A stretch of DNA of 7,890 bases from a virus. Lineage: Duplodnaviria; Heunggongvirae; Uroviricota; Caudoviricetes. The stretch's first letter is position 1. Every line of letters begins with the position of its first letter. The DNA lies in the IMG/VR virus record IMGVR_UViG_3300014523_000016. The stretch is one strand, 5' to 3'. The translations under genes and the position numbers were made by a program. Below are positions 1,697 to 7,890 of this stretch, piece by piece. The notes beneath the pieces were generated by a model, which was not told the DNA's origin, ran no database searches, and worked only from the letters and a program-made list of their open reading frames with translations.

Positions 1697-1721
1697 TATC
1701 CGATCGTANNNNNNNNNNNNT

Positions 1722-3403: not shown

Positions 3404-3429
3404 ATAAAAAAGCCCTCACACTGGAGGGC
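3404..3429 (-). terminator. intrinsic terminator-like hairpin on the minus strand (tL-like), upstream of cIII
   Basis: Plus strand 3412..3417 gccctc and 3424..3429 gagggc form a 6-bp GC-rich stem with a 6-nt loop. The A-run at 3405..3411 gives a U-tract after the stem on the minus strand. The plus-strand tail is not T-rich, so it is unidirectional. Borders the N-run at 3435..3517. Confidence 0.45.
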
Positions 3430-3562
3430 AAAGANNNNNNNNNNNNNNNNNNNNNNNNNNNNNNNNNNNNNNNNNNNNNNNNNNNNNNNNNNNNNNNNNN
3501 NNNNNNNNNNNNNNNNNCAGTGCAGTGTTTATTCTGTTGTTAGTGCCAAAAATAAAGGCCGA

Positions 3563-4829: not shown

Positions 4830-4937
4830 AGAGACTTGAGGGGGATCAGAATTGCGCGTTTTAGTGAGTTGTATCTGTTTATNNNNNNNNNNNNNNNNNN
4901 NNNNNNNNNNNNNNNNNNNNNGACGCTGTAACCAAAG

Positions 4938-4964: not shown

Positions 4965-5741
4965 CTAGGCTACCAGAGACTCAATCCAAGAGTCTCTGGT
5001 ATGGAATGGCAACACTCGTGCGGTATCATTAAATAGTAGTGATAGTTGCTGTAGCTCAGGTGTTAACCCATCGCTGTCAACTATTACAAATCTATTGTTT
5101 ATGTCAGGAACGACCTGACTTAAGTCAACAATCTTCCCAACTGTTGAGTGGGCAGTATTCCATCCCTTACTGCTGGCAAGGCTTACCGTAAACCCGCGTT
5201 TTGGTGGTATTAGTCGAGACTCATTCCTTAGCGTTAACGGAACAGTAATGTTATGCCCACTAATACCTTTCACTTTTTCCTTTAAGGCTAGTCGCTTCCC
5301 AAGCCCTGCTGATTTTAAGTAACTGATTACACATTTTTCGAACTTATCGTCTTTGACCTCAGCATACCAATCAGCAGTTTGGGCGGATGCAAGAATCCCA
5401 CCACGAATAACATTTGCAGTTACCTGTCCAACGGACGACTCATCTGCCCACGCAGATATCTCTCCAGAGTCATTTAATGAAATTCCTTGCGAAGCGAGTG
5501 ATGACCTGATCAGATCAATTTTCTTTTTAGTCAGGTGGATGCCGCGTGATTCAATATTCATCAATGTATCGCAGTAGTCTGTAACCCTATACTGACCACT
5601 CATCTCTTGAACGAATACACTTATCTGCTCACAATCATCGTAGTATGTGAAGGGACTAATAACGCGCAGCAACGTGTCGCTCATTGGGTGGCATTCAAAC
5701 CCGAGCTTAGATATGACTGTTGAACACGTTACATTTCCCAT
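4965..5741 (-). CDS. hypothetical protein (258 aa), second gene of the cassette in the rexAB-equivalent position; function unknown
   Basis: ORF track 4965..5741. ATG 5741..5739 lies 13 nt upstream of, and out of frame with, the stop of the preceding gene (TAA 5731..5729), suggesting coupling. No transmembrane-like hydrophobic stretch and no motif I recognise. Hand-sampled GC in this cassette is about 37-38% versus about 57% in a cI line. Confidence 0.75.
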   Translation of the reverse strand: MGNVTCSTVISKLGFECHPMSDTLLRVISPFTYYDDCEQISVFVQEMSGQYRVTDYCDTLMNIESRGIHLTKKKIDLIRSSLASQGISLNDSGEISAWADESSVGQVTANVIRGGILASAQTADWYAEVKDDKFEKCVISYLKSAGLGKRLALKEKVKGISGHNITVPLTLRNESRLIPPKRGFTVSLASSKGWNTAHSTVGKIVDLSQVVPDINNRFVIVDSDGLTPELQQLSLLFNDTARVLPFHTRDSWIESLVA

Positions 5742-6271
5742 GATAGCTGACCTGATTTATCTTGATTAGGTAAAGGTGGGCTGCCTTCATATATGATATT
5801 AAGCGCCTCGCAAAAATAATTCCAGTAGCCAAAAAAATCATCTGGCTTGATGTTCGTTTCAAGCTTAAGTGCAATTTCTTCCCCAGCTGATTCGAAGTAC
5901 ATGTGATAGTGAGGACCTCGAGCCACCTCAACAAAATCTGGATGGTTCACTATAGATTTATTACGGTGTGGCTTGTTATCCGCAGGGTACGGGTCAAGCG
6001 CGTAAATGCGCCTGTCATGAAGAAACATCACAAATGAAATCTTCACTATATCCACCCCTTCAACGATAGGAGGACGCCAGTGAAGCATAAATCTTATGCC
6101 TGTGATTGGGTTGCCAATTTCATCAAAAGCTTTGAGATCCAATTTAAACCAGATTGGGGTTCGTCCCTCACTTCCGGTCCATGTAACTCCGCTAAAAGTT
6201 ACTTTTTTCAAGCGAGTAATAGCTTGGTCAACCTCTTTCTGGGTAGGCTTAAAGTCGCCTTTTTTAGCCAC
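5729..6271 (-). CDS. hypothetical protein (180 aa), first gene of the cassette downstream of cI; function unknown
   Basis: ORF track 5729..6271. Start is GTG 6271..6269 with a GGTGA SD-like motif 11-12 nt upstream; first in-frame ATG is about 60 codons in, so the true start is uncertain. Same strand as cI, 97 nt after the cI stop. Contains His/Tyr-rich stretch GPHYHMYF. No family recognised. Confidence 0.65.
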   Translation of the reverse strand: MAKKGDFKPTQKEVDQAITRLKKVTFSGVTWTGSEGRTPIWFKLDLKAFDEIGNPITGIRFMLHWRPPIVEGVDIVKISFVMFLHDRRIYALDPYPADNKPHRNKSIVNHPDFVEVARGPHYHMYFESAGEEIALKLETNIKPDDFFGYWNYFCEALNIIYEGSPPLPNQDKSGQLSWEM

Positions 6272-6368: not shown

Positions 6369-7073
6369 TCACGAACTTTTCAGCCACTCCCTTGCCTCGA
6401 TGTCATCCAGATGGCGAGATTGCTTCAGAATACCAGCCACATACTCCACCTTTGCTACTTGATGATAAGGCAACGTTATTGGCCTATGGTCCTGGTTGAT
6501 GCTTGTAAACTGGTATTCTCCGTCTCTGTCATAGCCAAGAACTTTGATCATGTTGTGTCCTTCAACGGTTCTGACAAACACCTCATCACCCGGGAATACT
6601 TTGGTGTTAGGCTCAATGAGTACATATTCTCCTGATTTTATTCTAGGCCACATGCTGTCTCCTTTCACACGAAGACCAAAGGCATCTGGATCATCGCTAT
6701 AAATCTTGAGCCACCCATCGCGCTCTTCGGTCATCTCGATGGCACCATCAACACCAAGAATTGCCTCACCAACCACGCGCACTAACCCTTTTCTTACCTG
6801 ACCGACAAAAGTTAAAGAATCTGAGCATGATGCAATTGGTGTTACATCATGTACCAAATCAAGCCACCCATTAGGTAACCCAAGTGCGGCTTCGAATTTT
6901 CTTGCTAGTTTATCCCCTATGTTTCGAGTGCTTTTTTCACCGGAGACTTGCGTGAGTTGAGAAGGGCTAACTCCAAGCTTATCGGCAAAGCTTGCATTAG
7001 TGTTACCCGCGATTTTTTTATGCTCATCTAGCAAAAACGCCAGATTCGATTTGCGAATATCTTTGTTTTCCAT
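6369..7073 (-). CDS. cI: cI-type prophage repressor (234 aa): N-terminal HTH plus C-terminal LexA/S24-like autocleavage domain
   Basis: ORF track 6369..7073. ATG 7073 is preceded by GAGGGAG. N-terminal HTH-like segment ASFADKLGVSPSQLTQVSGEK. C-terminal domain has the S24 serine motif GDSM and a Lys (MIKVL) 37 residues later, the LexA-type Ser-Lys dyad spacing. Divergent from cro across an operator region. Confidence 0.9.
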   Translation of the reverse strand: MENKDIRKSNLAFLLDEHKKIAGNTNASFADKLGVSPSQLTQVSGEKSTRNIGDKLARKFEAALGLPNGWLDLVHDVTPIASCSDSLTFVGQVRKGLVRVVGEAILGVDGAIEMTEERDGWLKIYSDDPDAFGLRVKGDSMWPRIKSGEYVLIEPNTKVFPGDEVFVRTVEGHNMIKVLGYDRDGEYQFTSINQDHRPITLPYHQVAKVEYVAGILKQSRHLDDIEAREWLKSS

Positions 7074-7186: not shown

Positions 7187-7420
7187 ATGAGTAATGAACT
7201 ACTACGCTGGCGAAAAGAGGCTTCTAGTGAGGAATGGAAGCGACTCGCCGCATTAGCGAATACTTCAGTTGGCTATCTTGATCAGATTGCATATGGGTTT
7301 CGAAGAGCTTCCCCAGATAAAGCGAATGCAATCGAAGAAGCCACTCGTAATTTCACGGGTTATAAACCTGTGAAAAAGGAAAATCTGGTGTTCGTATCGC
7401 GTAGAGCATCAGCAGCATAA
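7187..7420 (+). CDS. cro: Cro-like HTH regulator (77 aa)
   Basis: ORF track 7187..7420. ATG preceded by GGAGG with a 5-nt spacer. Divergent from cI across the operator region and followed by nutR and cII. HTH-like segment LAALANTSVGYLDQIAYGFRR. Assignment rests mainly on position. Confidence 0.7.
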   Translation: MSNELLRWRKEASSEEWKRLAALANTSVGYLDQIAYGFRRASPDKANAIEEATRNFTGYKPVKKENLVFVSRRASAA

Positions 7421-7558: not shown

Positions 7559-7855
7559 ATGGAACAAACAAGTTACAGCAAACTATCCCAGCGTGACGTT
7601 GATCGCGCAGAAACAGATTTACTCATCAACCTGTCAACGCTTACCCAGCGCGGTCTGGCAAAGATGATTGGCTGTCATGAATCGAAGATAAGCAGAACGG
7701 ACTGGAGGTTTATTGCTTCGGTCTTGTGTGCTTTCGGAATGGCATCAGACATCAGTCCGATTAGCAGGGCTTTTAAGTATGCATTGGATGGAATCACAAA
7801 GAAAAAATCCCCGGTTGCCGCCGGGGACTCTAAGCAAATTGATATGCAATTCTGA
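7559..7855 (+). CDS. cII: cII-like transcriptional activator (98 aa)
   Basis: ORF track 7559..7855. The central HESKISRTDWRF segment and the C-terminus TKKKSPVAAGDSKQIDMQF parallel lambda CII (...SQISRWKRDW... and TNKKRPAATERSEQIQMEF, from memory). Weak RBS. Position after cro and nutR is as in lambda. Confidence 0.85.
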   Translation: MEQTSYSKLSQRDVDRAETDLLINLSTLTQRGLAKMIGCHESKISRTDWRFIASVLCAFGMASDISPISRAFKYALDGITKKKSPVAAGDSKQIDMQF

Positions 7856-7880
7856 GGGAATTACTGGATCAATCCACAGG
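7802..7880 (-). ncRNA. OOP-like antisense RNA with its terminator inside the cII 3' end (extent approximate; promoter beyond window)
   Basis: On the minus strand, hairpin CCCCGG-CGGCAA-CCGGGG (plus 7827..7808) is followed by TTTTTT (plus 7807..7802), an intrinsic terminator antisense to cII codons KKKSPVAAGD. Lambda OOP RNA ends in a very similar GGTTGCCGCCGGG hairpin plus U-tract at the same place in cII (from memory). The 5' end is inferred from the lambda length of about 77 nt, not seen. Confidence 0.4.
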
Positions 7881-7887
7881 AGTAATT

Positions 7888-7890
7888 ATG
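7888..7890 (+). CDS. start codon of the next rightward gene (replication-initiator position), truncated by the window end
   Basis: AGGAG at 7877..7881 followed 6 nt later by ATG at 7888..7890, 32 nt after the cII stop. Only the start codon is in the window; the O-like identity is inferred from lambdoid gene order. Confidence 0.3.

What the first reader, a model, noticed from the sequence alone, without database searches (positions are those of the whole stretch)
7802..7880. OOP-like antisense terminator embedded in the cII 3' coding region
A GC-rich hairpin followed by six T residues reads as an intrinsic terminator on the minus strand, antisense to the last third of cII. In lambda the OOP antisense RNA terminates at the equivalent spot and down-regulates cII. 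Here the hairpin is encoded by cII codons SPVAAG, mirroring lambda's PAAT codons. The promoter would lie beyond the window end.
Basis: partly seen in the sequence, partly recalled or inferred. Interest (0 to 1): 0.45.

Follow-up and report, generated by a model that had tools for sequence, protein, structure and literature searches.

The report
OOP antisense RNA gene against cII
This is the lambdoid-phage OOP antisense RNA gene, a well-known ~77-nt transcript ending in a terminator inside the 3' end of cII that helps turn the lysogeny activator CII down; it is real but ordinary.

Summary
On the minus strand, a 7-bp G+C-rich stem (7827-7821 with 7814-7808) and a 6-nt loop are followed by U6 (7807-7802), inside the last 55 nt of a Pfam Phage_CII gene (7559-7855). 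It is the strongest terminator-like site in the window.

The stretch 7877-7801 aligns without gaps to lambda OOP RNA (55/77 identical). It folds into the same two-hairpin shape. A covariance model built only from OOP regions of other cII types finds it as the single strong hit (51.8 bits, E about 8e-9).

The terminator is not a by-product of the protein sequence. Only 30 of 20,000 synonymous recodings give one as good, and the stem stays fully paired, with compensatory changes, across 13 variants.

Only the TG and -35 elements lie beyond it.

P22's RefSeq record annotates the same oop promoter and terminator. P22 and BTP1 transcripts have been detected, and OOP-like sequences in Stx phages are already reported. 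Transcription and CII down-regulation in this phage are inferred, not shown. Verdict: an already known element, of low interest.

The parts
7801..7877 (-). Predicted OOP antisense RNA, about 77 nt. The 5' end at G7877 and the 3' end near 7801-7802 are placed by homology with lambda.
   Evidence: Ungapped alignment to lambda oop, 55/77 identical. Covariance model R1 hits 7877-7800(-) at 51.8 bits, E about 8e-9. Two-hairpin fold, z = -5.0.
7802..7827 (-). Intrinsic terminator (t_o homologue): stem 7827-7821 with 7814-7808, loop 7820-7815, U6 7807-7802.
   Evidence: The stem is 100% paired in 13 distinct variants, with 3 compensatory pairs. A terminator as good arises in 30 of 20,000 synonymous recodings.
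7834..7877 (-). 5' stem-loop I of the predicted RNA (GUGGAUUGAU...AUCAAUUUGC), covering the cII stop codon and the cII-to-next-gene spacer.
   Evidence: Minimum-free-energy and centroid folds. Natural lambda/window-type recombinants keep a 5' hairpin.
7885..7890 (-). -10 hexamer CATAAT of the pO-like promoter. It overlaps the ATG (7888-7890) of the gene after cII. The TG and -35 elements lie beyond the window end.
   Evidence: Same hexamer and same 7-nt distance to the start G as lambda pO and the annotated P22 oop promoter. The lambda pO- mutation 38683-87 maps to this hexamer (PMC5869508).
7559..7855 (+). cII gene, the target. Its last 55 nt (7801-7855) and the 22-nt spacer after it are complementary to the RNA.
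   Evidence: Pfam Phage_CII, E = 2.1e-31. 33% protein identity to lambda CII. 100% identical to CII of Stx1 phage AU5Stx1.

Best explanation
The window carries the oop gene of a lambdoid prophage or phage with a 21/933W-type cII allele.

Proposed mechanism, by analogy with lambda:
- A leftward sigma-70 promoter starts transcription near G7877. Its -10 (CATAAT, 7890-7885) overlaps the start codon of the gene after cII.
- The transcript crosses the cII stop codon and ends at the hairpin plus U6 at 7827-7802, giving an RNA of about 77 nt with two hairpins.
- Being cis-encoded, it is perfectly complementary to the rightward cII mRNA: the last 55 nt of cII and the 22-nt spacer.
- Pairing creates a duplex that RNase III cleaves. 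That destabilises cII mRNA, lowers CII, and biases the phage towards lytic growth.
- Convergent pO transcription may also damp pR transcription into the replication genes.

Shown here: the anatomy, the homology, the conservation and covariation of the terminator, and the codon-level tuning. Inferred: transcription in this phage, the exact RNA ends, RNase III dependence, and the phenotype.
For: - Gene order cI(-), cro(+), cII(+), next-gene ATG, as in lambda.
- The window's strongest terminator-like site is on the minus strand inside cII.
- Ungapped 55/77 identity to lambda OOP, with the same -10 and start spacing.
- DNA identity to lambda rises from 53% over the first 242 nt of cII to 67% in the last 55 nt and 86% in the spacer plus ATG. 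This fits an extra non-coding constraint.
- The covariance model from non-window-type OOPs gives a single strong hit at 7877-7800(-), E about 8e-9.
- The terminator stem is fully paired in 13 variants, with 3 compensatory pairs. All 3'-partner slides drop to 26-60% paired.
- P22, HK630 and BTP1 have different hairpins at the same spot.
- Only 0.15% of synonymous recodings give as good a terminator.
- The P22 RefSeq record annotates an oop terminator and promoter there.
- Published detection: P22 oop by small-RNA-seq, whose read begins GAUUGAUCCAGU, a sequence identical in the window (PMC13397905). OOP(BTP1) in a prophage transcriptome (PMC7067206).
- OOP-like sequences in Stx phages are already noted (PMC5488031; PMC12197685).
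- Mechanism in lambda: PMC5869508 and PMC2327240, both citing Krinke & Wulff 1987/1990.
Against: - The -35 and TG elements are outside the window, and the window's exact sequence was not found in the collections. Its true continuation is therefore unknown.
- In loci that share the window's last 50 nt exactly, the downstream gene is not lambda O. Their best -35 match is only 3-4 of 6.
- In the closest overall relative (E. coli GF4 prophage) the consensus scan reports no promoter.
- In lambda, a 45-nt pO fragment holding the -10 and -35 was non-functional, and 94 nt were needed (PMC5869508). Promoter strength in a different upstream context therefore cannot be assumed.
- OOP had little or no role in removing CII after SOS induction of lambda (PMC2327240). 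The size of the physiological effect is uncertain.
- No transcript data exist for this sequence.
Confidence: 0.88

Rival explanations
1. The terminator and the oop-like sequence are inherited relics. In this phage's replication-module context the promoter is too weak, so no functional antisense RNA is made. The hairpin only stops stray leftward transcription coming from the replication genes.
For: - Loci with the same 50-nt junction carry non-O downstream genes with -35 matches of 3/6.
- No consensus promoter is called in the closest relative, L188.
- Lambda pO needs more than the core 45 nt (PMC5869508).
Against: - The extended -10 TG is kept in 179 of 180 loci, across at least five different downstream gene starts.
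- In the P22 orf48/DUF2740-type downstream context an OOP transcript was detected in P22 and BTP1. These two phages have the 4/6 -35 TGGTCA. Most junction-sharing class B loci have TGGTAA, 3/6.
- The terminator is codon-tuned and covaries, which would be unexpected for a decaying relic.
Confidence: 0.08
2. The hairpin is a by-product of G+C-rich Pro/Ala/Gly codons after a Lys-Lys-Lys run in the CII C-terminal tail, and has no RNA-level function.
For: Holding the protein fixed, about 5-6% of synonymous recodings still give some weak terminator-like site (at least 5 bp, T4). With looser criteria the figure is 21%.
Against: - A terminator as good as the real one arises in only 0.15% of recodings.
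- The peptide over the stem differs between alleles (SPVAAGD here, RPAATER in lambda), yet the stem stays 100% paired with compensatory changes.
- The flanking non-coding spacer and the -10 are even more conserved than cII.
Confidence: 0.02
3. The element acts mainly through convergent transcription, with pO interfering with pR-driven transcription into the origin region and so tuning replication, rather than through antisense pairing with cII mRNA.
For: In lambda, pO activity lowers pR transcription, and a pO- mutation impairs phage and plasmid replication (PMC3985674).
Against: - This does not exclude the antisense role. OOP supplied in trans from plasmids suppresses CII activities in lambda (PMC5869508).
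- The replication module next to this cII allele varies, while the oop sequence stays conserved with cII.
Confidence: 0.02

Closest known systems
Bacteriophage lambda OOP RNA (pO-oop-t_o), 77 nt
   Same: - Position and strand: antisense to the last 55 nt of cII plus the spacer.
- A -10 CATAAT over the next gene's ATG, and a G start 7 nt downstream.
- Identical length in an ungapped alignment, 55/77 identical.
- Two-hairpin fold, and a terminator with a 7-bp stem, 6-nt loop and U6.
   Different: - 22 substitutions.
- Terminator stem UCCCCGG/CCGGGGA instead of CGCUCGG/CCGGGCG, coding SPVAAGD instead of RPAATER.
- Stem I uses a shifted register (GGAUUGAU/AUCAAUUU instead of AUCCAG/CUGGAU).
- The cII proteins are only 33% identical.
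- In loci sharing the junction, the downstream gene is not lambda O, so the -35 differs.
Salmonella phage P22 oop (annotated in NC_002371; antisense to c1) and OOP(BTP1)
   Same: - The -10 hexamer plus the following 22 nt (28 nt, CATAATTACTCCTGTGGATTGATCCAGT) are identical to the window's.
- The oop promoter overlaps the start of a small downstream ORF (orf48/DUF2740), which is one of the contexts found next to the window's junction.
- Transcripts were detected experimentally.
   Different: The 3' two-thirds differ. P22 has a longer, different terminator hairpin (GGCCUCAA...UUGAGGC) and a shorter RNA (63-67 nt). Its c1 is a different cII allele.
OOP-like sequences of Shiga-toxin (Stx) phages and phage 21-type cII alleles
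   Same: The window's CII is 100% identical to that of Stx1 phage AU5Stx1 and 93-99% identical to many Stx phages. Their oop region differs from the window's by one loop base and one base beside the -10. Reviews already list OOP for 'lambda and Stx phages'.
   Different: The window's loop variant (CGGCAA rather than CGGCCA) was not found elsewhere. The difference lies in the loop and should not affect pairing.

Membership tests
OOP antisense RNA of lambdoid phages | Encoded antisense to the 3' end of a cII-family gene, immediately upstream of the replication region | tested here: met
   cII 7559-7855 matches Pfam Phage_CII at 2.1e-31. The element lies on the minus strand at 7877-7801, and the next gene's ATG is at 7888.
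OOP antisense RNA of lambdoid phages | Sequence homology to lambda/P22 oop | tested here: met
   55/77 identical to lambda without gaps. The -10 plus the first 22 nt match P22 exactly. A covariance model from six other OOP types scores 51.8 bits, E about 8e-9, full length.
OOP antisense RNA of lambdoid phages | Rho-independent terminator (t_o) located inside the cII coding sequence, active leftward only | tested here: met
   7-bp stem with 6 G-C pairs, followed by U6, on the minus strand. The window scan reports the site on the minus strand only. On the plus strand the hairpin is followed by ACTCTAAGCAAATTG, not a T-run. Covariation; codon tuning. Function as a terminator was not assayed.
OOP antisense RNA of lambdoid phages | pO promoter: -10 CATAAT overlapping the downstream gene's start codon, extended -10 TG, and a -35 about 17 nt upstream | tested here: inconclusive
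   The -10 is present at 7890-7885 with lambda-like spacing to the start G. The TG and -35 lie beyond the window. In relatives the TG is present in 179 of 180 loci, and the -35 matches 3-4 of 6 depending on the downstream gene.
OOP antisense RNA of lambdoid phages | Two-hairpin secondary structure (5' stem-loop plus terminator stem-loop) | tested here: met
   The minimum-free-energy fold equals the centroid fold, -31.2 kcal/mol, z = -5.0. It has the same architecture as lambda OOP folded the same way.
OOP antisense RNA of lambdoid phages | A ~77-nt transcript is actually made | not testable with these tools
   No expression data exist for this sequence. Homologous transcripts are reported for P22 (PMC13397905) and BTP1 (PMC7067206).
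OOP antisense RNA of lambdoid phages | RNase III-dependent cleavage of cII mRNA and reduced CII activity | not testable with these tools
   Known for lambda only (Krinke & Wulff 1987/1990, as cited in PMC5869508 and PMC2327240). The full 77-nt complementarity to the cII mRNA here follows from cis-encoding.
Rfam curated RNA families | Match to a curated covariance model | tested here: inconclusive
   No Rfam hit at the element. Lambda and P22 oop themselves give no hit either, so Rfam has no model that recognises OOP and the negative result says nothing.

The most novel reading that the evidence does not exclude
The oop cassette (terminator, stem I, and an extended -10 over the ATG) may act as a portable junction at which unrelated replication modules are joined to cII.

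The promoter would then constrain the first two codons of whatever gene follows, to ATG NCA. This was seen in 179 of 180 loci with seven different N-termini. The terminator would likewise constrain the CII C-terminal degradation-tag residues, so that S/R84 covaries with GD/ER at 89-90.

If so, an antisense RNA gene shapes two protein sequences and marks a recombination boundary. In non-O contexts pO might work as a -35-independent extended -10 promoter.
Probability: 0.3. Interest if true: 0.3.

Novelty: already known. Interest (0 to 1): 0.12.

Why it matters
It matters little beyond correct annotation. OOP is one of the first antisense RNAs ever described. It is annotated in P22, has been detected in BTP1 and P22, and is already noted in Stx phages that carry this same cII allele.

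Most genome records, including those of the Stx phages matched here, leave it unannotated. Marking 7801-7877(-) as oop would improve annotation and would help in reading RNA-seq signal antisense to cII in EHEC prophages. There, the lysis-lysogeny balance affects Shiga toxin release.

Tried and rejected
- **Rfam scan.** No hit in the window. The positive control with lambda and P22 also gave none, so Rfam has no OOP model and this route is uninformative.
- **Finding the window's own continuation**, to read the -35 directly. The last 50 nt gave no hit in genome contigs and 91 hits in viral contigs, with three different downstream genes. A 55-nt pattern containing the window's unique loop base gave no hit in either collection. 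The true continuation remains unknown.
- **The search for related loci with a cII alignment.** It returned only relatives at least 90% identical. Diversity had to be collected from the phage records by tblastn instead.
- **A terminator on the plus strand for pR transcripts.** Rejected: no T-run follows the hairpin on that strand, and the window scan reports the site on the minus strand only.
- **Hairpin as a by-product of the amino-acid sequence.** Rejected on the synonymous-recoding test and on covariation. A first run of that test timed out.
- **Pseudomonas phage D3 cII.** It has no comparable terminator, so the element is not universal to the Phage_CII family.
- **Literature search for OOP expression data in Stx phages.** One search gave nothing usable.

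Full report
**Context.** The window is the early and immunity region of a lambdoid phage or prophage. ORF listing and Pfam give:
- a LexA-like cI repressor at 6369-7073(-), with a Peptidase_S24 domain;
- a cro-like gene at 7187-7420(+);
- a cII gene at 7559-7855(+), Pfam Phage_CII, E = 2.1e-31;
- the ATG of the next gene at 7888-7890, at the very end of the window.

The CII protein is 100% identical to that of Stx1 phage AU5Stx1. It is 84-99% identical to CII of many Stx phages, HK106 and imm21 phages, but only 33% identical to lambda CII. The closest overall relative found is a prophage of E. coli strain GF4, at 98.4% identity over 85% of the window.

**Observation.** The minus strand reads 5'-...AGAG UCCCCGG CGGCAA CCGGGGA UUUUUU C-3'.
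- The stem is 7827-7821 paired with 7814-7808, the loop is 7820-7815, and the U6 run is 7807-7802.
- It is the best terminator-like site in the window scan.
- That scan reports it on the minus strand only. On the plus strand the hairpin is followed by ACTCTAAGC..., not a T-run.

**Is it more than chance?**
- With the protein held fixed and the last 40 codons resampled synonymously, using codon usage from the window's own ORFs, a terminator as good as the real one appears in 30 of 20,000 trials. The criteria were at least 7 bp, at least 6 G-C pairs and T6 directly after. Weak terminator-like sites appear in about 5-6% of trials.
- Across 13 distinct variants of this region from other phages, the 7-bp stem is paired in 100% of cells. 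Three pairs change on both sides (U-A to C-G, C-G to G-C, C-G to U-A). Sliding the 3' partner by 1-3 columns drops pairing to 26-60%. These changes probably reflect only a few independent events.
- P22, HK630 and BTP1 have entirely different, longer hairpins plus a U-run at the same place.
- Pseudomonas phage D3 has none.

**Identity.** Aligned with lambda (NC_001416), the minus strand matches without gaps from the -10 hexamer of pO to the end of t_o.
- CATAAT lies at window 7890-7885. It is followed by 7 nt and then the start G at 7877, as in lambda. From there 77 nt run to 7801, of which 55 are identical.
- The consensus scan recovers lambda pO (TTGAGT-17-CATAAT with an upstream TG) and the P22 oop promoter (TGGTCA-17-CATAAT) as positive controls.
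- The lambda pO- mutation at 38683-38687 falls in this hexamer (PMC5869508).
- DNA identity to lambda is 53% over the first 242 nt of cII, 67% over the last 55 nt, and 86% over the spacer plus ATG. Conservation is therefore highest where the RNA gene lies, not where the protein is most conserved.
- The predicted 77-nt RNA folds into a 5' stem-loop and the terminator stem-loop (-31.2 kcal/mol, z = -5.0). Lambda OOP folded the same way has the same layout.
- Rfam gives no hit, but it gives none for lambda or P22 oop either, so it has no such family.
- I therefore built a covariance model from OOP regions of six phages of other cII types: lambda, epsilon34, Dewey, Shigella 75/02, Edno5 and GF-2. 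Searching the whole window with filters off gave one strong, full-length hit at 7877-7800(-), 51.8 bits, E about 8e-9. The next hit is the same hairpin read on the other strand, at E = 0.045.

**What is already known.**
- The P22 RefSeq record annotates 'terminator: oop; similar to phage lambda' and 'promoter: oop' at the equivalent position. P22's -10 hexamer plus the following 22 nt (28 nt in all) are identical to the window's.
- A small-RNA-seq study detected P22 oop. Its read begins GAUUGAUCCAGU (PMC13397905).
- OOP(BTP1) was annotated from a prophage transcriptome (PMC7067206).
- Reviews state that OOP-like sequences occur in the cII-O regions of Stx phages, and list OOP for 'lambda and Stx phages, 77 nt, cis' (PMC5488031; PMC12197685).
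- In lambda, OOP pairs with the cII-O mRNA and promotes RNase III-dependent cleavage, lowering CII (Krinke & Wulff 1987/1990, as cited in PMC5869508 and PMC2327240).
- pO activity also reduces convergent pR transcription and affects replication (PMC3985674).

**The promoter: the remaining uncertainty.** Only the -10 lies inside the window.
- The window's last 50 nt occur exactly in 91 IMG/VR contigs.
- There the following gene is one of three kinds. One begins MTKRRKKY..., like epsilon34 gp49. One begins MTKQLSPY..., the P22 orf48/DUF2740 type. One begins MTYENDKF....
- None is lambda O. The window has GGAGTAATTATG where O-linked relatives have GGAGTCATTATG.
- Over 180 related loci, the TG of an extended -10 directly precedes CATAAT in 179, whatever the downstream gene. 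The second codon is always NCA (Thr, Pro or Ala). The best -35 match is 3/6 in the epsilon34-like context and most DUF2740 contexts, and 4/6 in lambda and P22.
- The consensus scan reports no promoter in the GF4 relative.
- Because lambda pO needed 94 rather than 45 nt to function (PMC5869508), promoter strength in this context is not certain.
- OOP detection in P22 and BTP1 shows that a non-O upstream context can work. Both have the DUF2740-type downstream context, with a 4/6 -35 (TGGTCA).
- The window's exact sequence, with loop CGGCAA, was not found in any collection.

**Conclusion.** The element is the oop gene (pO -10, OOP RNA, t_o) belonging to a 21/933W-type cII allele.
- Corrections: the -10 is inside the window, and the overlap is the last fifth of cII (55 of 297 nt), not the last third.
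- Mechanism: antisense pairing, RNase III cleavage and lower CII. This is inferred from lambda and was not tested here.
- This is an already known element, and the value of the finding is mainly better annotation.

Noticed in passing
window 7885-7890 and beyond; loci L001-L188: In 179 of 180 related loci the codon after the downstream gene's ATG is NCA (ACA, CCA or GCA), whichever gene follows. The N-termini seen were MTNTAK, MTKRRK, MTKQLS, MTYEND, MPKRRK, MAKKPT and MAKGYL. On the other strand this gives the TG of an extended -10 for pO. The antisense promoter seems to constrain the first two codons of whatever replication-module gene is joined to cII.
   Followed up: partly
about 22-26 nt beyond the window end in relatives (L003, L005, L052, L176, L177): A CCTGG motif (CCWGG, the Dcm site) sits in the same register, at the -35 position of the oop promoter, in four unrelated-looking downstream genes. 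It is coded as (Y/F/D)-Q at residues 8-9. Lambda and Edno5 have TTGAGT and TTGAAA there instead. The meaning is unknown.
   Followed up: no
L165, L172, L173, L143, L162: Natural recombinants have crossovers inside the oop sequence: a window-type 5' half with a lambda-type 3' half, and the reverse. Both kinds still fold into two hairpins, because the conserved 5' segment GAUUGAUCCAG can pair with either 3' partner.
   Followed up: partly
window 7568-7581 (-): TTGCTGTAACTTGT (TTGC-N6-TTGT) lies on the minus strand over codons 4-8 of cII. This is where lambda, P22 and D3 have the CII-binding repeat of the pRE promoter. Such a pattern is expected about once per window by chance, so its position is the only argument.
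   Followed up: partly
window 7699-7724 (+): A terminator-like hairpin lies on the plus strand inside cII (GGACTGGAGGTTTATTGCTTCGGTCT followed by TGTGTGCTTT). It is also present in the GF4 relative. The T-tract is weak, so it is probably chance.
   Followed up: no
window 1709-1720, 3435-3517, 4883-4921: Runs of N (12, 83 and 39 bases): masked stretches in the supplied sequence. ORFs that cross them are unreliable.
   Followed up: no
window 4965-6271 (-): Between the N-like region and cI lie a DUF1828-domain gene (4965-5741) and an overlapping 180-aa ORF (5729-6271). The names come from the GF4 prophage annotation. This looks like a possible accessory ('moron') pair next to the immunity region. 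Not examined.
   Followed up: no
window 3412-3429 (-): A second good minus-strand terminator-like site (GCCCTC CAGTGT GAGGGC followed by TTTTTTAT) lies just before an N-run, in the leftward early operon.
   Followed up: no
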